NCBI RefSeq assembly: GCF_044324785.1
Contig: NZ_CP172127.1
DNA from: Escherichia coli
GTDB taxonomy: Bacteria; Pseudomonadota; Gammaproteobacteria; Enterobacterales; Enterobacteriaceae
Length of the DNA stretch: 64,000 bases
Reading direction: 5' to 3' (one strand)
In this document: one piece after another, positions 18,121 through 26,675 of the stretch
How the letters are laid out: each line of letters opens with the position of its first letter
How positions within the stretch are numbered: position 1 is the stretch's first letter
The notes under the pieces: generated by a model
Databases searched by the model: none
Seen by the model: the letters and a program-made list of their open reading frames with translations, nothing else
Told to the model about the DNA's origin: nothing
Made by a program: the position numbers and the translations under genes

Positions 18121-19788
18121 GTGGCTCAATTCGTTTATACCATGCATCGTGTCGGCAAAGTTGTTCCGCCGAAACGTCATATTTTGAAAAACATCTCTCT
18201 GAGTTTCTTCCCTGGGGCAAAAATTGGTGTCCTGGGTCTGAACGGCGCGGGTAAGTCCACCCTGCTGCGCATTATGGCGGGCATTGATAAAGACATCGAA
18301 GGCGAAGCGCGTCCGCAACCGGATATCAAGATTGGTTATCTGCCGCAGGAACCGCAGCTGAACCCGGAACACACCGTGCGTGAGTCCATTGAAGAAGCGG
18401 TTTCTGAAGTGGTTAACGCCCTGAAACGCCTGGATGAAGTGTATGCGCTGTACGCCGATCCGGATGCCGATTTTGACAAGCTGGCCGCTGAACAAGGCCG
18501 TCTGGAAGAGATCATTCAGGCTCACGACGGTCACAACCTGAACGTTCAGCTGGAGCGTGCGGCGGATGCGCTGCGTCTGCCGGACTGGGACGCGAAAATC
18601 GCTAACCTCTCCGGTGGTGAGCGTCGTCGCGTGGCGTTGTGCCGCCTGCTGCTGGAAAAACCAGACATGCTGCTGCTCGACGAACCGACCAACCACCTGG
18701 ATGCCGAATCCGTGGCCTGGTTGGAACGCTTCCTGCACGACTTCGAAGGCACCGTGGTGGCGATTACCCACGACCGTTACTTCCTTGATAACGTTGCAGG
18801 CTGGATCCTCGAACTGGACCGCGGTGAAGGTATTCCGTGGGAAGGCAACTACTCCTCCTGGCTGGAGCAGAAAGATCAACGTCTGGCGCAGGAAGCTTCA
18901 CAAGAAGCTGCGCGTCGTAAGTCGATTGAGAAAGAGCTGGAGTGGGTACGTCAGGGAACTAAAGGCCGTCAGTCGAAAGGTAAAGCACGTCTGGCGCGTT
19001 TTGAAGAGCTGAACAGCACCGAATATCAGAAACGTAACGAAACCAACGAACTGTTTATTCCACCAGGACCGCGTCTTGGCGATAAAGTGCTGGAAGTCAA
19101 CAACCTGCGTAAATCCTATGGCGATCGTCTGCTGATTGATGACCTGAGCTTCTCGATCCCGAAAGGAGCGATCGTCGGGATCATCGGTCCGAACGGTGCG
19201 GGTAAATCGACCCTGTTCCGTATGATCTCTGGTCAGGAACAGCCGGACAGCGGCACCATCACTTTGGGTGAAACGGTGAAACTGGCATCGGTTGATCAGT
19301 TCCGTGACTCAATGGATAACAGCAAAACCGTTTGGGAAGAAGTTTCCGGCGGGCTGGATATCATGAAGATCGGCAACACCGAGATGCCAAGCCGTGCCTA
19401 CGTTGGCCGCTTTAACTTTAAAGGGGTTGATCAGGGTAAACGCGTTGGCGAACTCTCCGGCGGTGAGCGCGGTCGTCTGCATCTGGCGAAGCTGCTGCAG
19501 GTTGGCGGCAACATGCTGCTGCTCGACGAACCAACCAACGACCTGGATATCGAAACCCTGCGCGCGCTGGAAAACGCCCTGCTGGAGTTCCCGGGCTGCG
19601 CGATGGTTATCTCGCACGACCGTTGGTTCCTCGACCGTATCGCCACGCACATTCTGGATTACCAGGATGAAGGTAAAGTTGAGTTCTTCGAAGGTAACTT
19701 TACCGAGTACGAAGAGTACAAGAAACGCACGCTGGGCGCAGACGCGCTGGAGCCGAAGCGTATCAAGTACAAGCGTATTGCGAAGTAA
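18121..19788 (+). CDS. ettA: ABC-F energy-dependent translational throttle protein EttA (YjjK)
   Basis: ORF track 555 aa, MAQFVYTMHRVGKVVPPKRHILKNISLSFFPGAKIGVLGLNGAGKSTLL...; two ABC domains. Confidence 0.97.
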   Translation: MAQFVYTMHRVGKVVPPKRHILKNISLSFFPGAKIGVLGLNGAGKSTLLRIMAGIDKDIEGEARPQPDIKIGYLPQEPQLNPEHTVRESIEEAVSEVVNALKRLDEVYALYADPDADFDKLAAEQGRLEEIIQAHDGHNLNVQLERAADALRLPDWDAKIANLSGGERRRVALCRLLLEKPDMLLLDEPTNHLDAESVAWLERFLHDFEGTVVAITHDRYFLDNVAGWILELDRGEGIPWEGNYSSWLEQKDQRLAQEASQEAARRKSIEKELEWVRQGTKGRQSKGKARLARFEELNSTEYQKRNETNELFIPPGPRLGDKVLEVNNLRKSYGDRLLIDDLSFSIPKGAIVGIIGPNGAGKSTLFRMISGQEQPDSGTITLGETVKLASVDQFRDSMDNSKTVWEEVSGGLDIMKIGNTEMPSRAYVGRFNFKGVDQGKRVGELSGGERGRLHLAKLLQVGGNMLLLDEPTNDLDIETLRALENALLEFPGCAMVISHDRWFLDRIATHILDYQDEGKVEFFEGNFTEYEEYKKRTLGADALEPKRIKYKRIAK

Positions 19789-19876
19789 TGCGTAAAATGC
19801 CGGATGCGGCGCGCCAGCATCGCATCCGGTATTAGTTAAATGATTAGTCCCCGGAAAAAGGCAGAATTTTCTTTAA
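19015..19876 (+). repeat. Left copy of a ~0.86 kb direct repeat (ettA codon Ser299 to stop, REP hairpin, decayed 3' tip of the antitoxin gene)
   Basis: Sequence from agcaccgaatatcagaaacgtaacg... through ...ccggaaaaaggcagaattttctttaa recurs at 23917-24776. Confidence 0.85.
19797..19831. repeat. REP-like palindrome downstream of ettA (gccggatgcg ... cgcatccggt)
   Basis: Inverted repeat read directly; same element recurs at about 24686-24720. Confidence 0.7.
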
Positions 19877-19943
19877 GCGTATTAGCTCAGATGCGGACTG
19901 ACACCTCAAATCAAGCGGGAACTCATGGTTCCCGCTTAACGTT

Positions 19944-20831
19944 TTATTCACCGCGCAGGATCTGGCGGAAATGGGAAACCAGCGGACGTTGGTTGGCTTT
20001 ATGCCAGGCTGCCCATAATTGCGTTGAATAATTCATCCACGGCAATTCACGTAATACCACCCCTTCCGGCGCATTATGACGCAGACTATGTTGAATTAAG
20101 GCCAGACCTAATCCCGCAGCGACCAGACCTAATGCCGTGAGGGGTTCACCCGCTTCCAGGCGAATATCAGGATTAAACCCGGCGTTAACACAGGCGGCGA
20201 CAAAATGATCGCGAGAATGCGCATCGTCGTTATGAATCACCGCAATCCACTGCTCATCGCCAAGTTGTGACGCGACAAGGTTTTCCTCCTGCGCCAGAGG
20301 ATGATTTTGCGGTAAGGCCAACAACATTCGATCATCCAGAACCTGAATATATTCCAGATCCTGCTCGCTGTCGGCGGGCGGCGTATCGACCAGAGAAAAA
20401 TCGAGACTGCGCTGGCGCAGGCCTTCAATCTGGGTAGCCGGTGGTTGGCTGTAAAGTGCGATATGCACATTCGGACGCGATACACGTAACGTACGTAGCG
20501 CCGTAGAAAGCACACCGGAATGCATGGCGTTTTCGATATAGCCAATACACAAGCCACCATCTTCCCCCCGTCCCAGGCGTTTGCCTAACGACTCCAGGCG
20601 GTTGGCGTGTGTCAGCAACGAACGTGTTTCGGCAAGGAATGTCTGTCCATCAGCGGTCAGGCGAATGCGCTGCTGATTACGCTCAAACAGCGTCAGCCCC
20701 AGCCGTTCTTCCAGTTGTGCAATCTGGCGGCTCAGCGGTGATTGCGAGATATGTAATCGCTCGGCTGCGCGTCCCACGTGCTCTTCTTCTGCGACCACCA
20801 CGAAGTACTTCAGTTGGCGTAAATCAATCAT
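19944..20831 (-). CDS. LysR-family transcriptional regulator
   Basis: ORF track 19944..20924; start set at MIDLRQLKYFVVVAEEEHVGRAAERLHISQSPLSRQIAQLEERLG (typical LysR HTH); divergent from the reductase genes. Confidence 0.85.
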   Translation of the reverse strand: MIDLRQLKYFVVVAEEEHVGRAAERLHISQSPLSRQIAQLEERLGLTLFERNQQRIRLTADGQTFLAETRSLLTHANRLESLGKRLGRGEDGGLCIGYIENAMHSGVLSTALRTLRVSRPNVHIALYSQPPATQIEGLRQRSLDFSLVDTPPADSEQDLEYIQVLDDRMLLALPQNHPLAQEENLVASQLGDEQWIAVIHNDDAHSRDHFVAACVNAGFNPDIRLEAGEPLTALGLVAAGLGLALIQHSLRHNAPEGVVLRELPWMNYSTQLWAAWHKANQRPLVSHFRQILRGE

Positions 20832-20964
20832 GTTAGACCTCAAAGGACTTAAGTCAGACGAATTATGTCCTATCAAGTCACAACCTCGCAAGGTATTGTG
20901 ATCCACGTCACAGGGCGATAGCAAAAAAACGCCCTAACCCAAACCGAATAATTGAGGACATCTT

Positions 20965-21975
20965 ATGAGCATCAAAAATTTACTTCCCGGCAAAATTGGC
21001 TTAGGTGGCGCACCACTCGGCAACATGTTCCGTGCCATTCCGGAAGACGAGGCCCACGCCACCGTGAGCGAAGCCTGGAACCTGGGCGTGCGTTACTTTG
21101 ATACCGCGCCGCTGTACGGCTCTGGCCTTTCTGAAATCCGCATGGGTGAAGCGCTGTCTCAGTATCCACGCGATGAATACGTTCTGAGCAGCAAAGTCGG
21201 TCGCATCATGCTGGACGAAATGGAAGATCCGGCAAAACGTGATTTCGGTGAAAAAGGTGGCCTGTTCGAACACGGCCTGAAAAACAAAATTCTGAATGAC
21301 TACTCTGCTGACGCCACGCTGCGCTCGATTGAAGACAGCCTGAAACGCCTGAAAACAGACCGTCTGGATATTGTCTGGATCCATGACCCGGCGCAGGACT
21401 TCTACGGTGACAGCTGGCTGGAACAGTTCAACATTGCCCGTACCGGTGCGTTTCGTGCGCTGACGCGTTTGCGTGACGAAGGTGTGATTAAAGCCTGGGG
21501 ACTGGGTGTGAATCGCGTCGAACCTTGCGAACTGACGCTGGCGCTGGACGAACCGAAGCCGGATGCGTTCCTGCTGGCGGGGCGTTATTCCCTGCTGGAT
21601 CACGAACGTGCGCTGCAACGCCTGATGCCAGAAGCACTGGAACAGAACGTGGATATTGTTGTGGGCGGTCCGTACAGCTCTGGCGTACTGGCAGGCGGCG
21701 AGCACTTTGAATATCAGAAAGCTTCTGCGGCCATCCAGCAGAAAGTGGCGCAAATTAACACCATTGCCACACGTTTCAATGTGAACGTTAAAGCAGCTGC
21801 GCTGCAGTTCGCACTGGCAAACCCGGCCGTTGCGGCGGTTATTCCTGGCTCCAGCCGTCCTGGCCGTATGGCAGAAGATCTGGCTGCACTGAATGCGCCT
21901 GTTCCGGCTGAATTCTGGGCAGAAATGCGCCGTCAAAATCTGGTTGCGGAAAACGCTCCGCTGCCGACCCGTTAA
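20965..21975 (+). CDS. Aldo-keto reductase family oxidoreductase
   Basis: ORF track 336 aa; AKR-type N-terminus (GLGGAPLGNMF...YFDTAPLYGSGLSE); GGAG-type RBS 8 nt upstream. Confidence 0.85.
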   Translation: MSIKNLLPGKIGLGGAPLGNMFRAIPEDEAHATVSEAWNLGVRYFDTAPLYGSGLSEIRMGEALSQYPRDEYVLSSKVGRIMLDEMEDPAKRDFGEKGGLFEHGLKNKILNDYSADATLRSIEDSLKRLKTDRLDIVWIHDPAQDFYGDSWLEQFNIARTGAFRALTRLRDEGVIKAWGLGVNRVEPCELTLALDEPKPDAFLLAGRYSLLDHERALQRLMPEALEQNVDIVVGGPYSSGVLAGGEHFEYQKASAAIQQKVAQINTIATRFNVNVKAAALQFALANPAVAAVIPGSSRPGRMAEDLAALNAPVPAEFWAEMRRQNLVAENAPLPTR

Positions 21976-21994
21976 TCAACCTGGTGAGAAAACG

Positions 21995-22792
21995 ATGAAA
22001 CTGGATCTGACAGGTAAAGTCGCGGTAGTCAGCGGCTCAACCTCCGGCATTGGGCAGGGTATCGCCGCCGGACTGGCAAAAGCAGGCGCAACGGTGGTTG
22101 TCGTCGGCCGTAAACAGCGCGGCGTTGATGACGCCATGGCTGCGATTGCGGCACAAACTCCCACGGCGTCACTGCGTGGCGTGGTGGCCGACCTCAGCAC
22201 CGAAGACGGCGTGGCTGCGCTGATCGCTGCAGTCCCAACGGCTGATGTGCTGGTCAATAATCTGGGCATTTTTAACGATAAAGATTTCTTTAGCGTTCCG
22301 GATGATGAGTGGATGCACTTCTATAACGTCAACGTCCTCTCCGGCGTTCGTCTGGCGCGTCACTATGCGCCAGGCATGACGGAACAGGGCTGGGGGCGGA
22401 TTATCTTTGTCTCGTCCGAATCCGGCGTGGCAATCCCTGGCGACATGATCAACTACGGCGTCACCAAAGCCGCGAATCTGGCGGTTTCTCATGGTCTGGC
22501 GAAACGACTGGCGGGGACCGGTGTGACCGTCAACGCCATTCTGCCAGGGCCAACCTTTACCGATGGCCTGAAAGAGATGCTGGCGGATGCCGCTGCACAA
22601 TCGGGACGCAGTGCGCGTGAACAGGCCGATGAGTTTGTTAAAACCTCGCGTCCGAGCTCCATCATCCAGCGTGCGGCGGATGTGGAAGAAGTGGCGAATC
22701 TGGCGGTTTATCTCGCGTCACCGCTTTCCTCGGCAACCACAGGGGCAGCCCTGCGCGTCGATGGTGGCGTCGTCGACACCCTGACTATGTAA
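21995..22792 (+). CDS. Short-chain dehydrogenase/reductase (classical SDR)
   Basis: ORF track 21893..22792; start set at MKLDLTGKVAVVSGSTSGIGQGIA (TGxxxGxG); YGVTK catalytic motif present. Confidence 0.85.
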   Translation: MKLDLTGKVAVVSGSTSGIGQGIAAGLAKAGATVVVVGRKQRGVDDAMAAIAAQTPTASLRGVVADLSTEDGVAALIAAVPTADVLVNNLGIFNDKDFFSVPDDEWMHFYNVNVLSGVRLARHYAPGMTEQGWGRIIFVSSESGVAIPGDMINYGVTKAANLAVSHGLAKRLAGTGVTVNAILPGPTFTDGLKEMLADAAAQSGRSAREQADEFVKTSRPSSIIQRAADVEEVANLAVYLASPLSSATTGAALRVDGGVVDTLTM

Positions 22793-22817
22793 CCCTATAA
22801 ATTAAGAGAAAATTATC

Positions 22818-23234
22818 ATGGCTAAAACAACTGTATCGATCGAAATTCCGGCTTCTGCCGACGCCGTATGGCAATTGATGGGCGGCTTTGATGCGCTGCC
22901 AGACTGGCTGCCGTTCATCCCGAAAAGCGTGGTGACAGAAGGCGGTCGCGTTCGTTCGCTGACAACCTCTGACGGCGGCACTGTGGTTGAACGTCTGGAA
23001 GCGTTTGATAACCGTCAACGCAGTTATACCTATTCCATTATTCAAGCACCGTTCCCAGTGGTGGATTACCTCTCCACCATTACCGTTCATGAAACCGCCG
23101 ACAGCCAGGTTTCCCGTGTGGAATGGTTCGGTGAATTCACCCCGGTGAATGTGACGAACGAAGAGGCCGAAGCGCTGTTTACCGGCATCTATCGGGATGG
23201 TCTCAAGGCGCTGAAGGACAACTTTGTTGCCTGA
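22818..23234 (+). CDS. SRPBCC (Bet v1-like / polyketide cyclase-dehydrase fold) protein
   Basis: ORF track 138 aa; size and composition typical of SRPBCC small-molecule binding proteins; family call from memory only. Confidence 0.6.
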   Translation: MAKTTVSIEIPASADAVWQLMGGFDALPDWLPFIPKSVVTEGGRVRSLTTSDGGTVVERLEAFDNRQRSYTYSIIQAPFPVVDYLSTITVHETADSQVSRVEWFGEFTPVNVTNEEAEALFTGIYRDGLKALKDNFVA

Positions 23235-23391
23235 TGCAATCGACAGGCGTCGGAACGTCCGGCGTCTGATTATTAACAAAAGCAGAATAGTCTATTGTCA
23301 TTTGTATCATTTATGTTATCAGGCAGCAGGCGTATTCTCTTCCCATCGCGTTAATAAACGCCAAACAATTAAGACACTCTGGAATATAAAC

Positions 23392-23604
23392 ATGAAAACG
23401 ATCATCGCAATTTTTACGGCTTCTCTTTTCTCTGTCGCGGCGTTTAACGCATCGGCGCAAAGCGTGACAGCAACCGGTACAACACTGGATTCTGCGGAAG
23501 CAGTTATTGCGCAGAAAGCGAAAGAGATGAACGCCTCTGAATACAAAATCACCAGCGCTCGCATGGGCAATACCGTCACCATGAGTGCCGAACTGTACAA
23601 ATAA
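23392..23604 (+). CDS. Small secreted DUF1471 (YdgH/BhsA/McbA-like) protein
   Basis: Internal start MKTIIAIFTASLFSVAAFNASAQ (signal peptide) within ORF track 23224..23604; 70 aa. Confidence 0.6.
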   Translation: MKTIIAIFTASLFSVAAFNASAQSVTATGTTLDSAEAVIAQKAKEMNASEYKITSARMGNTVTMSAELYK

Positions 23605-23652
23605 CCGCGCAAGGGACCCATTACGTAATTTGCTAAATATGCGCTGAATGCG

Positions 23653-23838
23653 TTGCCATTAAAAAACCGTATTGTAATGCCACCGATGACACGTTCCCGT
23701 GCGGGTGACGTTGCGACTGACATGATGGCGGACTATTACGCGCAGCGCGCTAGTGCAGGACTTATCATCAGCGAAGGTACGCAAATCAGCAGAAGCGCTG
23801 CGCATAATTTTCCACGGCCCGCTGATTTACTCCGGTAA
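23653..23838 (+). pseudogene. Remnant of an Old Yellow Enzyme (NemA-like NADH:flavin oxidoreductase) N-terminus
   Basis: ...LKNRIVMPPMTRSRAGDVATDMMADYYAQRASAGLIISEGTQIS resembles the OYE N-terminal region, then the frame terminates after about 60 codons. Confidence 0.5.
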
Positions 23839-23916
23839 ATAGACCAAAGCGCGCGCAGAAGCGGACTGTCAGATTTGATTGCATTCTGGCTACGCAACTG
23901 GTCGGTTGGAGTATGA

Positions 23917-24677
23917 AGCACCGAATATCAGAAACGTAACGAAACCAACGAACTGTTTATTCCACCTGGACCGTGTCTGGGCGACAAAGTGCTGGAAGTC
24001 AGCAACCTGCGTAAATCCTATGGCGATCGTCTGCTGATTGACTCCCTGAGCTTCTCGATCCCGAAAGGAGCGATCGTCGGGATCATCGGTCCGAACGGTA
24101 CGGGCAAATCGACGTTGTTCCGTATGATCTCTGGTCAGGAACAGCCGGACAGCGGCACCATCACTCTGGGTGAAACGGTGAAACTGGCATCGGTTGATCA
24201 GTTCCGTGACTCAATGGATAACCGCAAAGCCGTTTGGGAAGAAGTTTCCGGCGGGCTGGATATCATGAAGATCGGCAACACCGAGATGCCAAGCCGCGCC
24301 TACGTTGGCCGCTTTAACTTTAAGGTAAACGCGTTGGTGAACTTTCCGGTGGTGAGCGCGGTCGTCTGCATCTGGCGAAGCTGCTGCAGGTTGGCGGCAA
24401 CATGCTGCTGCTCGACGAACCAACTAACGACCTGAATATCGAAACCCTGCGCGCGCTGGAAAACGCCCTACTGGAGTTCCCGGGCTGTGCGATGGTTATC
24501 TCGCACGACCGTTGGTTCCTCGACCGTATCGCCACGCACATCCTGGACTACCAGGATGAAGGTAAAGTTGAGTTCTTCGAAGGTAACTTTACCGAGTACG
24601 AAGAGTACAAAAAACGCACGCTGGGCGCAGACGCGCTGGAGCCGAAGCGTATCAAGTACAAGCGTATTGCGAAGTAA
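23917..24677 (+). pseudogene. ettA: Frameshifted duplicate of the ettA 3' half
   Basis: Near-identical to ettA 19015-19788 but with a ~13-nt deletion near 24318; ORF track splits it into 23989..24435 and 24402..24677. Confidence 0.85.
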
Positions 24678-24776
24678 TGCGTAAAATGCCGGGTGCGGCG
24701 CGCCAGCATCGCATCCGGTATTAGTTAAATGATTAATGGGAGGCAAGTTCCCGGAAAAAGGCAGGATTTTCTTTAA
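23917..24776 (+). repeat. Right copy of the ~0.86 kb direct repeat (ettA 3' fragment, REP, and the true 3' end of the antitoxin gene)
   Basis: Aligns by eye to 19015-19876 with point differences and two small indels. Confidence 0.85.
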
Positions 24777-25017
24777 TTGTGGCAAGTACTTTTGCAGCCA
24801 ATCCCGTAGGATTTCTTCGCTTCGATTCCCAGCTTTTAATGGTATCCACACTGGTTCCCAGAGCTTTTGCCATCTCACTTTGAGAAACGTTGAGTTGCTC
24901 ACGAATAGCTTTAACATCCGCAATTTCGTAGCGGGTCACCCGTGCAGGTTCTTTTAAACCTTGTTTAATCTCGACAGCCTCTTCCAGAGAGGTTTTCAAC
25001 TCATCAAAAAAACTCAT
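24733..25017 (-). CDS. XRE-family HTH antitoxin (HigA-like)
   Basis: ORF track 94 aa, MSFFDELKTSLEEAVEIKQGLKEPARVTRYEIADVKAIREQLNVSQSEMAKALGTSVDTIKSWE...; starts 1 nt after the toxin stop. Confidence 0.75.
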   Translation of the reverse strand: MSFFDELKTSLEEAVEIKQGLKEPARVTRYEIADVKAIREQLNVSQSEMAKALGTSVDTIKSWESKRRNPTGLAAKVLATIKENPAFFRELASH

Positions 25018-25018
25018 T

Positions 25019-25351
25019 TTATACCTCGCCTTTGAGCAGTTTCGTCAACTTCTTTAGTTGAGCTTTTTCCGTATCTGTCAGACTATCTTTGGCATTTTTC
25101 GGATAGGCCATAATCAAATAAATAATCTCTTCCGTCGCCAGAAAGTAAATTATTCTGACACTGCCACTTTTTCCCTGTGAACCCGCAGCCATTCGGACTT
25201 TACGCAATCCACCAGTCTGCTGAATGAGATCACCTTTATCGGGAGTTCCGATGAGTTCTTTTTGTAATTCCTTTAATTCATCATCGGTTGCAATCTGCTT
25301 GATCTGACGCGTAAACATTGGCGTCTCTATAAATATTATCGCCTTGCCCAT
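25019..25351 (-). CDS. RelE/ParE-superfamily toxin, HigB-2-like
   Basis: ORF track 25019..25429; start set at MGKAIIFIETPMFTRQIK... with GGAGG upstream; GGLRKVRMA...GSVRIIYF motif region resembles HigB-2 toxins. Confidence 0.7.
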   Translation of the reverse strand: MGKAIIFIETPMFTRQIKQIATDDELKELQKELIGTPDKGDLIQQTGGLRKVRMAAGSQGKSGSVRIIYFLATEEIIYLIMAYPKNAKDSLTDTEKAQLKKLTKLLKGEV

Positions 25352-25367
25352 CCCCCCTCCCTGGCAG

Positions 25368-25402
25368 GTACATTGTACACCGAAATGGAGTACTAAGTAC
25401 AC
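25368..25402 (-). promoter_or_regulatory. Two GTAC-N3-GTACAC motifs 22 bp apart upstream of the toxin gene; candidate autoregulatory operators
   Basis: gtacattgtacac (25368-25380) and gtactaagtacac (25390-25402) read directly in the 90-bp nadR-toxin spacer. Confidence 0.45.
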
Positions 25403-25442
25403 TTTTGAATTAGTAATCCCACTCAACATCTTATAAAGATGA

Positions 25443-26675
25443 TTATCCCTGCTCCCCCATCATCTCCCGCACCAGCTCCACACAGCGCAGGAAACGGCTG
25501 TCGTAATCGTCCTCTTCAACCCGCACAAATTCGATATTGTTCTCTTCCAGCATCTCTACCAGCAAGTTCTGGAACTCTTTGCGATCCACCGAACTACCGA
25601 GGCTGCGTAAACCATCCGCCACCCACGGGGTGTTGTTCTCCAGCAAGATAACCAGATCAAAACGGTATTCATCGATCAGCGCCTGCACGAACGGATGCTC
25701 CCGCCCTTCGTACTTTTTGCAGAACGCCTGGGTAGTGACAAAATCAGTGTCGATAAACGCCACTTTATTGGCATATTTCACTGCAAAATCAATGTATTGA
25801 GCGTGTCCCAGCGCGATTTTATCGTAGTCGGAATACTGCAATGCGATCTCATCACCGCCAAGGTGTGAAAAGACATAATCGCGACCATATTCCCATGCAC
25901 TGGTAGTGTTGAAGATATTAGCAAGTTTGTTTACCAGGGTGGATTTACCGCTCGACTCGCCGCCAAGGATCGCCACGGTACGCACAAAGAACGGCTTCAC
26001 TTCGGTGGGAATATATTCCCAGTAGCGGAACGGGTTTTCGCGGATCTGCGCACCGCTGATACTCATAAAGGTACGCTTCGGATCGACCAGCACCGTCTCG
26101 ATCCCCAGATGTTCCATATACTGTGGCGCATCGGCTTCTTCCGAGGTGTAGATCAGGTCCGGCTGGATCCCCTTTTCAGCCATAAACTTTTTGATGCCGT
26201 TGCTCCACACATCCCAGCCGTGCGGATATGGCTCCATGCCCTCTTCGTTGAAAGCATGAATACGGATATTTTTCTGATATTTAAAGGTTTGCAATAACCA
26301 GCGCAGACGATCCGGCACGGTGGGCTGCTGCGACATGGCGCTGTCTTCAAACAACGCGCGGTCGCGGGTATCGTCAAAACCCATAATGATATGCAGCTCG
26401 TCAACCTGGCTACAGGCGCGCTGGATAAGGTAGATATGTCCGGTATGTAGCGGGTAGAACTTACCGAATACGACACCAATGGTTTTCTTCTGTCGGGGAA
26501 ATTCAAGCCCCAAAAAACGGTGCAACGCCTCCAGTTTTTGCGCGCTGGGGCTTTTAATTTTGGCATTCAGTAACTGGCTTAAATACCCTTTGGTCATACC
26601 GCTGGCATCAGCTACCTGCTGTAGCGTGCAGCCCTGTTGCTTGATGGCAGTTTTCAGGTAATCAAATGACGACAT
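25443..26675 (-). CDS. nadR: Trifunctional NAD biosynthesis regulator / NMN adenylyltransferase / ribosylnicotinamide kinase NadR
   Basis: ORF track 25443..26696; start set at MSSFDYLKTAIKQQGCTLQQVADASGMTKGYLSQLL (410 aa). Confidence 0.95.
   Translation of the reverse strand: MSSFDYLKTAIKQQGCTLQQVADASGMTKGYLSQLLNAKIKSPSAQKLEALHRFLGLEFPRQKKTIGVVFGKFYPLHTGHIYLIQRACSQVDELHIIMGFDDTRDRALFEDSAMSQQPTVPDRLRWLLQTFKYQKNIRIHAFNEEGMEPYPHGWDVWSNGIKKFMAEKGIQPDLIYTSEEADAPQYMEHLGIETVLVDPKRTFMSISGAQIRENPFRYWEYIPTEVKPFFVRTVAILGGESSGKSTLVNKLANIFNTTSAWEYGRDYVFSHLGGDEIALQYSDYDKIALGHAQYIDFAVKYANKVAFIDTDFVTTQAFCKKYEGREHPFVQALIDEYRFDLVILLENNTPWVADGLRSLGSSVDRKEFQNLLVEMLEENNIEFVRVEEDDYDSRFLRCVELVREMMGEQG

What the first reader, a model, noticed from the sequence alone, without database searches (positions are those of the whole stretch)
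24733..25442. HigB-2/RelE-type toxin and XRE-HTH antitoxin pair next to nadR, with tandem palindromic operator-like motifs
Two small co-oriented genes with toxin first (110 aa, N-terminus MGKAIIFIETPMF..., GGLRKV...GSVRIIYF region typical of HigB-2/RelE-fold toxins) and an HTH antitoxin starting 1 nt after the toxin stop. The 90-bp spacer upstream carries two GTAC-N3-GTACAC motifs 22 bp apart, as expected for antitoxin autoregulation. I do not recall a toxin-antitoxin module at this position in K-12.
Basis: partly seen in the sequence, partly recalled or inferred. Interest (0 to 1): 0.55.

Follow-up and report, generated by a model that had tools for sequence, protein, structure and literature searches.

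The report
HigB2-type toxin–antitoxin pair beside nadR
This is a real but already catalogued toxin–antitoxin gene pair of the Vibrio HigB-2/HigA-2 type, with its own repressor-binding sites, found in about one in eight E. coli genomes, while K-12 and most other strains keep only a broken remnant of it at the same spot.

Summary
On the minus strand, a 110-aa toxin gene (25019-25351) lies 1 nt upstream of a 94-aa HTH antitoxin gene (24733-25017). Both sit just downstream of nadR. The 91-bp spacer holds two GTAC-N3-GTAC palindromes 22 bp apart.

The toxin matches Pfam PF06296 and V. cholerae HigB-2 (E 7.5e-17) and keeps all four catalytic residues. The antitoxin is NCBIfam "NadS" (182.6 bits against a cutoff of 60) and resembles HigA-2.

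In 80 homologous loci from other species:
- 79 have the same gene pair.
- None lies near nadR.
- Counting the window, 72 of 81 upstream regions carry the GTAC-N3-GTAC motif (background 0.002 per 130 nt). It extends to GGTGTAC-N3-GTACACC and overlaps a -10-like hexamer.

The module is not new. RefSeq annotates it in 672 of 5,426 complete E. coli genomes, and a 2020 catalogue lists it as "parE-3/yiaG-2".

Three additions from this work:
- K-12's "nadS" is a deletion remnant of this module.
- All sampled remnants share one deletion junction.
- One third of carrier genomes have a K85I change at the catalytic lysine. This window keeps K85.

Toxicity, neutralisation and operator binding are inferred, not tested. 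Verdict: an ordinary, already known element, correctly read. Interest is low.

The parts
25019..25351 (-). Toxin gene, 110 aa, HigB-2 / PF06296 'RelE' family. Predicted ribosome-dependent mRNA endonuclease.
   Evidence: ORF. Pfam PF06296 5.9e-10. V. cholerae HigB-2 chains at E 7.5e-17. The HigB-2 catalytic residues R51, R64, Y82 and K84 (PMC5416850) correspond to R53, R66, Y83 and K85 here, and these are invariant in 14 homologues. The predicted fold matches 5jaa_D with TM 0.87 and rmsd 1.8 A. RefSeq annotates the identical protein as WP_000513551.1.
24733..25017 (-). Antitoxin gene nadS, 94 aa. N-terminal toxin-binding segment (about residues 1-32) plus C-terminal XRE-type HTH domain (about residues 35-93).
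   Evidence: NCBIfam NF041265 NadS at 182.6 bits, cutoff 60. HTH_3 6.1e-10. HigA-2 chains at E 2.2e-6. In the toxin-linker-antitoxin model, NadS residues 3-18 form a helix and 26-32 a strand at pLDDT above 90, as HigA-2 does when bound to toxin. The C-terminal domain matches 5j9i with TM 0.82-0.85. The same antitoxin follows the toxin in 79 of 80 homologous loci.
25365..25381 (-). Proximal operator-like inverted repeat. Coding strand reads GGTGTAC-AAT-GTACCTG; core GTACAATGTAC at 25368-25378.
   Evidence: Read directly from the sequence. The motif is conserved 27-53 nt upstream of the toxin ATG in 72 of 81 loci, with consensus GGTGTAC-(T/A)(A/T)T-GTAC(A)(C)(C). Unchanged in four diverged E. 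coli alleles, although flanking spacer bases vary. Binding by NadS is inferred.
25387..25403 (-). Distal operator-like inverted repeat. Coding strand reads AGTGTAC-TTA-GTACTCC; core GTACTTAGTAC at 25390-25400. Lies 22 bp from the proximal site.
   Evidence: Eleven loci, including this one, have two copies spaced 20-22 bp, about two helical turns. Unchanged in four other E. coli alleles. Binding is inferred.
25372..25377 (-). Predicted -10 hexamer TACAAT, inside the proximal operator.
   Evidence: This is part of the best sigma-70-like match in the spacer (TGTACT, 18 nt, TACAAT). In 41 of 72 loci the best-scoring promoter puts its -10 at this same position inside the motif. The stricter consensus scan did not list it. 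Prediction only; no transcript data.
25396..25401 (-). Predicted weak -35 hexamer TGTACT (3 of 6 matches), inside the distal operator.
   Evidence: In most other two-site loci the -35-like hexamer likewise falls in the distal motif. Prediction only.
25356..25361 (-). Shine-Dalgarno-like GGGAGG, 4 nt upstream of the toxin ATG.
   Evidence: Read from the sequence. AGGAG- or GGAG-like sequences sit at the same place in most homologous loci.

Best explanation
This is a chromosomal type II toxin-antitoxin operon of the HigB-2/HigA-2 kind: a PF06296 toxin with a NadS-family antitoxin, transcribed toxin first from its own promoter in the nadR-toxin spacer.

Proposed mechanism, by homology with V. cholerae HigBA2:
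- The 110-aa toxin is a RelE-fold, ribosome-dependent endonuclease that cuts mRNA in the ribosomal A site, using R53, R66, Y83 and K85.
- The 94-aa NadS antitoxin neutralises it with its N-terminal segment, which folds into a helix plus a strand on the toxin.
- NadS dimerises through its C-terminal HTH domain and represses the operon by binding two 7-3-7 inverted repeats (GGTGTAC-N3-GTACACC type) that cover the -10 and -35 regions.
- Loss or degradation of NadS would free the toxin and de-repress the operon.

The module is mobile. Close relatives sit on small plasmids and in unrelated chromosomal sites of many Gammaproteobacteria, and its position next to nadR has no functional meaning.

Shown here: family membership, conserved catalytic residues, conserved gene pair, conserved upstream motif, predicted folds.
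Inferred: toxicity, neutralisation, DNA binding, promoter position.
For: - Sequence and profile matches.
- The four residues whose alanine substitution lowers HigB-2 activity 170- to 3000-fold (PMC5416850) are present and invariant in 14 homologues.
- The fusion model has pLDDT 83.5 and pTM 0.75. The toxin part matches HigB-2 from the HigBA2 complex (TM 0.87). The antitoxin N-terminus is ordered as helix plus strand, and the HTH domain matches the HigA-2 C-terminal domain at about 1 A rmsd.
- The gene pair is conserved in 79 of 80 loci with 1-7 nt gaps.
- The upstream motif is present in 72 of 81 loci against 0.0018 expected per 130 nt, with two-site spacing of 20-22 bp.
- The -10-like hexamer lies inside the motif in 41 of 72 loci. 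This parallels the footprinted HigA2 operator TGTACGC-N5-GCGTACA, which extends over the -10 (PMC11006873).
- NadS residues at the four HigA2 base-contact positions (D58, K61, S62, R67) are invariant or nearly so within the NadS family, which fits one family-wide operator.
- Five diverged E. coli alleles encode an identical NadS protein, differ only synonymously in nadS, and have unchanged operator cores.
- Homologues occur in 889 plasmid records, at 82% identity on ~5.2-kb plasmids.
Against: - No experiment on this E. coli module was found in the held literature. Activity is extrapolated from a relative that is about 36-40% identical.
- The -35 is weak (3 of 6), and the strict promoter scan did not call a promoter in the spacer.
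- The -10 coincidence is partly built into the motif, because TACnnT lies within GTACnnTGTAC.
- Three of the four HigA2 base-contact residues differ in NadS, and the repeat spacer is 3 bp rather than 5 bp, so the DNA-binding geometry cannot simply be copied from the 8a0x structure.
- Most E. coli have lost the toxin, and a third of carriers have K85I. The module is therefore dispensable and often disarmed.
- A related-sounding 'HigB-like' toxin, SehA, turned out not to be a nuclease (PMC12817084), so homology-based mechanisms can fail. SehAB does belong to a different family.
Confidence: 0.85

Rival explanations
1. The pair is a toxin-antitoxin module, but the toxin works differently from HigB-2. 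It could be a ParE-type gyrase poison, as the published label 'ParE-3' implies, or an inhibitor of another enzyme, as Salmonella SehA inhibits RNase III.
For: The 2020 AIEC catalogue files it under the 'ParE_toxin superfamily' (PMC7232551). SehA shows that a predicted RelE-fold nuclease can have another target (PMC12817084).
Against: No Pfam ParE_toxin, HigB_toxin or HigB-like match appears even at E up to 10. The best sequence and fold matches are all HigB-2, and ParE2 appears only at Foldseek E 0.14. All four HigB-2 catalytic residues are kept and invariant. SehB is a 142-aa relative of K-12 HigA, so SehAB is a different family.
Confidence: 0.05
2. In this strain the module is an inert leftover. 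The reading frames are still open, but the toxin is no longer active or expressed, and the locus is on its way to the decayed state seen in K-12.
For: About 80% of complete E. coli genomes retain only a remnant. Remnants have decayed further in several lineages. 223 of 672 carrier genomes have K85I at the catalytic lysine. The predicted promoter is weak.
Against: The window allele keeps K85 and the other catalytic residues, and 281 genomes share its exact 61-nt segment. Both ORFs, the ribosome-binding site and both operator cores are intact. nadS shows only synonymous change among diverged strains, as expected under purifying selection. A strain with an active toxin cannot lose NadS.
Confidence: 0.07
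3. The mechanism is as in the best explanation, but the biological role is anti-phage abortive infection rather than plasmid or locus addiction or stress response.
For: RelE/ParE-superfamily toxins are increasingly tied to defence (PMC11980606). Both proteins match PHROG families of unknown function, phrog_5869 at 7.7e-29 and phrog_2104 at 7.2e-22, so relatives travel with phages.
Against: There is no specific match in PADLOC, only generic HTH and weak CARF hits. Only 7 weak phage matches were found, against 889 plasmid records. No defence genes flank it. The role cannot be decided from sequence.
Confidence: 0.12
4. The GTAC-N3-GTAC motifs are chance, or belong to something else such as nadR termination or a restriction-site pattern, and are not antitoxin operators.
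For: Within the window alone the enrichment is modest: 5 of 100 shuffles give at least 2 matches.
Against: The motif recurs at a fixed distance upstream of homologous toxin genes in 72 of 81 loci whose flanks are otherwise unrelated and none of which has nadR. It extends to a 17-bp inverted repeat. The characterised relative HigA2 binds a TGTAC-containing inverted repeat. No terminator-like site was found in the spacer.
Confidence: 0.02

Closest known systems
Vibrio cholerae HigB-2/HigA-2 (higBA2; PDB 5JAA, 5JA8, 5J9I, 8A0X)
   Same: - Same Pfam toxin family, PF06296.
- About 36-40% identity over the whole toxin, with the same four catalytic residues.
- Toxin-first gene order.
- Antitoxin with an N-terminal neutralising segment (helix then strand) and a C-terminal HTH dimerisation and DNA-binding domain.
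- Operator is a 7-bp inverted repeat containing TGTAC that overlaps the -10.
   Different: - The antitoxin is only about 27-33% identical.
- Three of the four base-contacting residues differ: R68, E71 and N72 become D58, K61 and S62.
- The repeat is GGTGTAC-N3-GTACACC rather than TGTACGC-N5-GCGTACA.
- Here there are two sites 22 bp apart instead of one.
- The location is the core chromosome of E. coli rather than the superintegron.
- This module has not been tested experimentally.
E. coli 'parE-3/yiaG-2' (TA30) of AIEC NRG857c and UPEC CFT073, which RefSeq annotates as 'RelE/ParE family toxin' plus 'NadS family protein'
   Same: It is the same locus. The genes are 333 bp and 285 bp, separated by 1 nt, between nadR and ettA. 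The RefSeq proteins are identical or 97-99% identical in UTI89, 536, 06-00048 and others.
   Different: - The published name ParE-3 is not supported at family level.
- The paper says K-12 and HS lack the genes, whereas K-12 keeps a remnant.
- In this window a ~4-kb islet and a duplicated ettA 3' fragment lie between the module and intact ettA. UTI89 and 536 do not have this.
Plasmid-borne PF06296/NadS pairs, for example on ~5.2-kb plasmids of Yersinia ruckeri, Citrobacter, Pectobacterium and Hafnia
   Same: The toxin is about 82% identical, the antitoxin type is the same, and a GGTGTAC-AAT-GTAC motif lies upstream (loci L034, L036 and L037 look like such plasmids).
   Different: Those have a single operator site and sit on a small mobilisable replicon, where an addiction role is plausible. 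The E. coli copy is fixed in a chromosomal site.
E. coli MqsR/MqsA and Rts1 or K-12 HigB/HigA
   Same: Toxin-first operons with RelE-fold toxins and XRE-HTH antitoxins. The NadS HTH resembles the MqsA C-terminal domain (Pfam 6e-4; Foldseek TM 0.78 to 3fmy).
   Different: There is no zinc-binding N-terminal domain. The MqsA-family NCBIfam score of 38 is below its cutoff of 61.8. The toxin has no MqsR, HigB or HigB-like Pfam match.

Membership tests
PF06296 'RelE' / HigB-2 toxin family | Significant match to the family profile and to the prototype sequence | tested here: met
   Pfam PF06296 at 5.9e-10, residues 13-106. HigB-2 chains at E 7.5e-17 over residues 6-102. All 120 listed homologues but two carry PF06296.
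PF06296 'RelE' / HigB-2 toxin family | RelE-like active site: Arg51, Arg64, Tyr82 and Lys84 of VcHigB2 | tested here: met
   These align to R53, R66, Y83 and K85 (alignment; numbering from PMC5416850). All four are invariant in 14 homologues and in 33 fusion rows.
PF06296 'RelE' / HigB-2 toxin family | RelE fold with C-terminal helix alpha-3 | tested here: met
   The AF2 model gives beta1-alpha1-alpha2-beta2-beta3-beta4-alpha3 with pLDDT mostly above 90. Foldseek top hits are all HigB-2; 5jaa_D has TM 0.87 and rmsd 1.8 A. This is a predicted structure, not a solved one.
PF06296 'RelE' / HigB-2 toxin family | Ribosome-dependent mRNA cleavage and growth inhibition | not testable with these tools
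   Needs expression and cleavage assays. No report for the E. coli protein was found.
HigA-2 / NadS antitoxin family | Match above the curated family cutoff | tested here: met
   NCBIfam NF041265 NadS at 182.6 bits against a cutoff of 60, full length 1-94.
HigA-2 / NadS antitoxin family | Modular build: N-terminal segment that folds on the toxin (helix plus strand) and C-terminal HTH dimerisation and DNA-binding domain | tested here: met
   The fusion model shows NadS 3-18 as helix, 26-32 as strand, then five helices, with pLDDT of about 90 or above and pTM 0.75. Matches to full-length HigA-2 (5jaa_A/B, 8a0x_A) and to its C-terminal domain (5j9i, rmsd 0.9-1.4 A). The tool reports no interface contacts, so binding itself is inferred.
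Type II toxin-antitoxin operon | Two small adjacent co-oriented genes kept together across genomes | tested here: met
   The gap here is 1 nt. 79 of 80 homologous loci have the same pair, and the remaining one ends at a contig edge.
Type II toxin-antitoxin operon | Autoregulation through antitoxin operators at the promoter | tested here: inconclusive
   The inverted repeat is conserved in 72 of 81 loci and overlaps -10- and -35-like hexamers. No binding or reporter data exist, and the strict promoter scan found none in the spacer.
ParE gyrase-poison toxins (PF05016), as the published name 'ParE-3' implies | Match to the ParE_toxin profile | tested here: not met
   No PF05016 hit among domains with E up to 10. 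VcParE2 appears only at Foldseek E 0.14 and TM 0.59.
Rts1-type HigB/HigA (PF05015 / TIGR02607) and K-12 HigB/HigA, including Salmonella SehAB | Match to the HigB-like or HigB_toxin profiles; 138-142-aa HigA with an N-terminal dimerisation domain | tested here: not met
   No PF05015 or PF09907 hit. No antidote_HigA hit in NCBIfam. SehB is 142 aa and 46% identical to K-12 HigA (PMC7160566), whereas NadS is 94 aa.
MqsR/MqsA | MqsA zinc-binding N-terminal domain (CxxCG motifs) and the MqsR toxin profile | tested here: not met
   TIGR03830 scores 38 bits, below its cutoff of 61.8, and covers only the HTH part. NadS has no cysteines. There is no MqsR match.
Known anti-phage defence systems (PADLOC) | Match to a defence-system protein model | tested here: not met
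   Only generic HTH models and weak CARF hits (E 0.0025-0.0047) were found.

The most novel reading that the evidence does not exclude
The truncated 'nadS' ORF that K-12, O157:H7 and many other E. coli keep after losing the toxin may still be useful. It is 55 aa and retains residues 1-32, the whole predicted toxin-binding helix and strand, with only two substitutions. It has no HTH domain. One transposon-reporter study reports it as expressed. Such a peptide could neutralise incoming plasmid-borne HigB-2-family toxins, which are about 82% identical, and so protect cells from plasmid addiction. Relatedly, E. coli may be repeatedly disarming this toxin, by deletion in most lineages and by K85I in a third of carriers, while keeping NadS.
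Probability: 0.08. Interest if true: 0.45.

Novelty: already known. Interest (0 to 1): 0.17.

Why it matters
As a discovery it matters little. The gene pair is annotated by NCBI's pipeline in hundreds of genomes, is listed in a published E. coli toxin-antitoxin catalogue, and belongs to a family whose Vibrio prototype is solved structurally and biochemically.

The useful outcomes are corrective and descriptive:
- The published 'ParE-3' label should read HigB-2/PF06296, which predicts mRNA cleavage rather than gyrase poisoning.
- The name 'NadS' and the position beside nadR carry no functional meaning, because none of 80 homologous loci is near nadR.
- The family appears to share one operator, GGTGTAC-N3-GTACACC. 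This gives a ready target for EMSA and reporter work and a contrast with the HigA2 operator.
- The K-12 'nadS' gene, recently noted as expressed but unexplained, is a deletion remnant of this module.
- One third of carrier genomes have a substitution at the catalytic lysine, which anyone testing 'the' E. coli allele (strain 536, for example) should know.

Tried and rejected
- **Salmonella SehAB as closest relative.** I guessed from memory that it was the closest characterised enterobacterial relative. This was rejected: SehB is 142 aa and a homologue of K-12 HigA.
- **A functional link to nadR.** None of 80 homologous loci has a NadR homologue within 3 kb, so the adjacency is specific to E. 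coli.
- **Generic repeat finder.** It did not report the GTAC motifs because they fall below its seed and length thresholds. It reported only a 10-nt imperfect inverted repeat (25387-25396 / 25410-25419). One arm of that repeat varies among E. coli alleles, so I treat it as chance.
- **Strict sigma-70 scan.** It found no promoter in the spacer. The promoter proposed here comes from a looser scoring and from comparison across loci.
- **Rfam.** Nothing credible in 23500-26000; one SNORD89 match at E 0.53 is chance.
- **PADLOC.** No defence-system match.
- **Hairpin downstream of nadS.** It folds at -16.2 kcal/mol but is not better than shuffles (z = -0.92). I therefore do not claim it as a terminator.
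- **Literature searches.** Searches for experiments on the E. coli module (HigB2 + E. coli + UPEC; toxin-antitoxin distribution in phylogroup B2) found only catalogues. One paper's unnamed antitoxin group, 'paired in 12% and orphan in 88% of isolates', resembles the census here, but I could not tie it to NadS.
- **Second structure job.** I did not run NadS alone, so the contrast between disordered-alone and ordered-on-toxin rests on the Vibrio data.
Full report
**1. What is in the sequence**

Both genes lie on the minus strand.
- The toxin ORF runs 25351 to 25019: 110 aa, starting MGKAIIFIETPMF, with stop TAA at 25019-25021.
- After one spacer base the antitoxin ORF runs 25017 to 24733 (94 aa).
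- nadR ends at 25443, so the two genes sit immediately downstream of nadR in the same orientation, behind a 91-bp spacer. radA and serB follow nadR.
- A GGGAGG ribosome-binding site lies 4 nt before the toxin ATG.
- The mechanical ORF list extends the toxin to 136 aa from an upstream ATG. All homologues and RefSeq use the 110-aa start.
- The spacer contains GTACATTGTAC (25368-25378) and GTACTAAGTAC (25390-25400), each a perfect 5+1+5 palindrome, 22 bp apart.

**2. What the proteins are**

*Toxin.* It matches Pfam PF06296 'RelE' (5.9e-10) and, more weakly, Gp49. It has no match to the ParE_toxin, HigB_toxin or HigB-like families. Against solved structures the only real hits are V. cholerae HigB-2 chains, at E 7.5e-17 over residues 6-102. 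A 2025 survey of the superfamily takes HigB-2 as the prototype of PF06296 (PMC11980606).

Alanine substitution of Arg51, Arg64, Tyr82 or Lys84 in HigB-2 lowers its activity 170- to 3000-fold (PMC5416850). Through the alignment these correspond to R53, R66, Y83 and K85 here. All four are invariant in 14 homologues of 79-85% identity.

*Antitoxin.* It scores 182.6 bits against NCBIfam NF041265 'NadS', whose cutoff is 60. It has an HTH_3 domain at residues 35-79. Its best solved relatives are HigA-2 chains at E 2.2e-6.

*Predicted structure.* I modelled a toxin-linker-antitoxin fusion from a paired alignment of 33 loci. The model has mean pLDDT 83.5 and pTM 0.75, with only the artificial linker disordered.
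- The toxin part has the RelE fold with a C-terminal helix. It matches HigB-2 taken from the HigBA2 complex (5jaa_D, TM 0.87, rmsd 1.8 A).
- NadS residues 3-18 form a helix and 26-32 a strand at high confidence. This is the shape the disordered HigA-2 N-terminus adopts on the toxin.
- The NadS C-terminal domain matches the HigA-2 C-terminal domain at about 1 A rmsd.
- The tool reports no inter-chain contacts, so the interface itself is inferred.

**3. Conservation of the pair and of the upstream motif**

A scan of one genome per species returned 80 loci encoding toxins 65-82% identical to this one. They come from Enterobacterales, Pseudomonas, Halomonadaceae, Methylococcaceae, Nitrosomonas and others.
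- 79 have a NadS-type antitoxin directly downstream. The remaining locus ends at a contig edge.
- None has a NadR homologue within 3 kb.

The pair is therefore a mobile unit, and its position beside nadR is specific to E. coli.

GTAC-N3-GTAC occurs within 130 nt upstream of the toxin start in 72 of 81 upstream regions, counting the window. In the rest of the same loci it occurs 6 times in 427,881 nt, or 0.0018 per 130 nt. The flanks are conserved too: G at -3 in 52 of 72 sites, G at -2 in 66, T at -1 in 63, and A/C/C favoured on the other side. The element is thus a 7-3-7 inverted repeat, GGTGTAC-(T/A)(A/T)T-GTACACC. It starts 27-53 nt before the ATG. Eleven loci, including this one, have two copies 20-22 bp apart, about two helical turns.

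With a permissive sigma-70 scoring, the best promoter in 41 of 72 loci places its -10 hexamer at position +1 of the proximal motif, as G[TACnnT]GTAC. Reasonable -35 hexamers such as TCGACA, TAGACA and TTTACA lie 16-18 bp upstream in otherwise unrelated sequence. In most two-site loci the -35 position falls in the distal motif.

For the window this gives -35 TGTACT (25401-25396) and -10 TACAAT (25377-25372). This is a prediction:
- The -10 coincidence is partly built into the motif.
- The -35 is weak.
- The strict scan did not call a promoter in the spacer.

It does parallel the footprinted HigA2 operator TGTACGC-N5-GCGTACA, which starts after the -35 and extends over the -10 (PMC11006873).

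Of the four HigA2 residues that read bases (Arg68, Glu71, Asn72, Arg77), only the last is shared. NadS has D58, K61, S62 and R67 at those positions, and these are invariant or nearly so across the NadS family. That fits a family-specific operator that also contains TGTAC but has different flanks and spacing.

**4. Status in E. coli**

- The 765-bp locus is covered at 80% or more in 673 of 5,426 complete genomes. A further 4,313 genomes match only about 140 bp of it.
- The toxin gene plus spacer is all or nothing. It is present at 95% identity or better in 672 genomes, always chromosomal, and annotated as 'type II toxin-antitoxin system RelE/ParE family toxin'. Carriers include UTI89, 536, BEN2908 and the type strain ATCC 11775.
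- A 2020 catalogue of AIEC NRG857c lists it as TA30 'parE-3/yiaG-2', with genes of 333 and 285 bp separated by 1 nt in the nadR-ettA interval. It is shared with CFT073 and reported absent from K-12 and HS (PMC7232551).

The finding is therefore already known. I found no experimental work on it in the held literature.

**5. The K-12 state is a remnant**

In a K-12-derived genome, PGAP annotates a 55-aa 'nadS' 33 bp downstream of nadR. Alignment shows that K-12 retains the last ~30 nt of the toxin gene and the first ~110 nt of nadS at about 95% identity. These are joined directly to the end of nadR. Repetitive REP-type sequence replaces the 3' part of nadS. A stub of the toxin's 3' end has no use of its own, so the K-12 arrangement must derive from an intact module by deletion of the promoter and 304 of the 333 toxin bases.

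Five remnant alleles were examined (K-12-like, O157:H7, ST865, 45E, GPEC1165). All share the same junction, TAA-CCG-(T/C)GA(T/C)GAAAC, which points to a single deletion event. They have since decayed differently:
- K-12 and O157 keep an open 55-aa frame.
- ST865 and 45E have lost the ATG and one T.
- GPEC1165 has TTG and an internal deletion.

The 55-aa product keeps NadS residues 1-32 with two substitutions and has no HTH domain. One transposon-reporter study reports it as expressed in BW25113 (PMC12350097). The varied decay argues against strong selection on the remnant, so I rate an anti-addiction role as unlikely.

**6. Variation among intact alleles**

The window, UTI89, 536, Eco-15 and noe1104 encode an identical NadS protein, with one synonymous difference in nadS. 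Both operator cores are unchanged, while other spacer bases vary. The toxin varies more: V110I, V65L, and K85I in strain 536, at the catalytic lysine whose HigB-2 equivalent is the most damaging to mutate.

The exact 61-nt segment carrying K85I is present in 223 of the 672 carrier genomes. The exact window (K85) segment is present in 281. The window allele therefore looks competent, but a third of carriers probably have an attenuated toxin.

**7. Mobility and surroundings**

Homologues of the toxin occur in 889 plasmid records. At about 82% identity they sit on ~5.2-kb plasmids of Yersinia ruckeri, Citrobacter, Pectobacterium and Hafnia. Only 7 weak matches occur in phage records, although both proteins match PHROG families of unknown function.

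In this window the module is separated from intact ettA by a ~4-kb islet encoding a LysR regulator, an aldo/keto reductase, an SDR, an SRPBCC protein and a DUF1471 protein. The islet is followed by a frameshifted duplicate of the ettA 3' end (23917-24677 against 19015-19788, 96-97% identity, with a 13-bp length difference). UTI89 and 536 lack the islet, and another strain has a different insert there. The nadR-ettA interval is a variable spot.

**8. Verdict**

Both the observation and the interpretation are right. The element is a HigB-2/HigA-2-type (PF06296/NadS) type II toxin-antitoxin operon with two conserved operator-like inverted repeats over its predicted promoter.
- Shown: family membership, catalytic residues, the conserved gene pair and the conserved motif.
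- Inferred from the Vibrio prototype: toxicity, neutralisation, DNA binding and the transcription start.

Novelty: already known. Interest: low. The by-products (the family-wide operator consensus, the origin of K-12 nadS, and the K85I polymorphism) are modest but usable.

Noticed in passing
window 23917-24677 and 19015-19788: The 3' end of ettA is present twice, about 770 bp at 96-97% identity. The downstream copy has a 13-bp length difference and is frameshifted (RefSeq: 'ATP-binding cassette domain-containing protein, frameshifted, missing N-terminus'). The two copies flank a ~4-kb islet, as if an insertion brought its own ettA 3' end and displaced the old one.
   Followed up: partly
window about 19789-23916 (L001 1112-5239): An islet between intact ettA and the ettA fragment encodes a LysR-family regulator, an aldo/keto reductase, an SDR oxidoreductase, an SRPBCC protein, a DUF1471 (YdgH/BhsA/McbA) protein and a fragment of an alkene reductase. 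UTI89 and 536 lack it. Strain GPEC1165 has a different extension at the same place (TauE/SafE exporter and a winged-helix regulator).
   Followed up: partly
L002 2944-3111 (K-12-derived genome); equivalent to window 24907-25047: The PGAP-annotated 55-aa 'nadS' of K-12 is a deletion remnant of this toxin-antitoxin module. It comprises the last ~30 nt of the toxin gene plus the 5' part of nadS, fused to the end of nadR, with REP sequence replacing the rest. Five remnant alleles share one junction but have decayed differently.
   Followed up: yes
L085 779-781 (E. coli 536); equivalent to window 25097-25099: Strain 536 has ATA (Ile) instead of AAA (Lys) at toxin codon 85, the catalytic lysine. The exact 61-nt segment with this change is in 223 of the 672 carrier genomes. 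The window allele (Lys) segment is in 281.
   Followed up: yes
window 24688-24719: A GC-rich REP-like palindrome lies between the converging ends of the ettA fragment and nadS. On the nadS strand it is followed by UUUU. It folds at -16.2 kcal/mol but is no better than shuffled sequence (z = -0.92), so a terminator role is unproven.
   Followed up: partly
L027, L031, L033, L039 (Lelliottia, Enterobacter), upstream of the toxin gene: These four loci lack the GTAC motif. They have a longer toxin ORF (123-130 aa where measured), a ~60-nt gap before the antitoxin, and a different upstream inverted repeat (GCAATAT...ATATTGC). They may be a sub-lineage with a changed regulatory region.
   Followed up: no
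L020, L025, L026, L048 (Rosenbergiella), upstream of the toxin gene: The operator-like site is degenerate on one side (GGGTAC-TAT-GTAAC). In L026 the toxin ORF is shortened to 92 aa, which suggests decay of the module in that genus.
   Followed up: no
window 25387-25396 and 25410-25419: A 10-nt imperfect inverted repeat (GGAGTACTAA / TTAGTAATCC) overlaps the distal operator. One arm differs in other E. coli alleles, so it is probably chance.
   Followed up: partly
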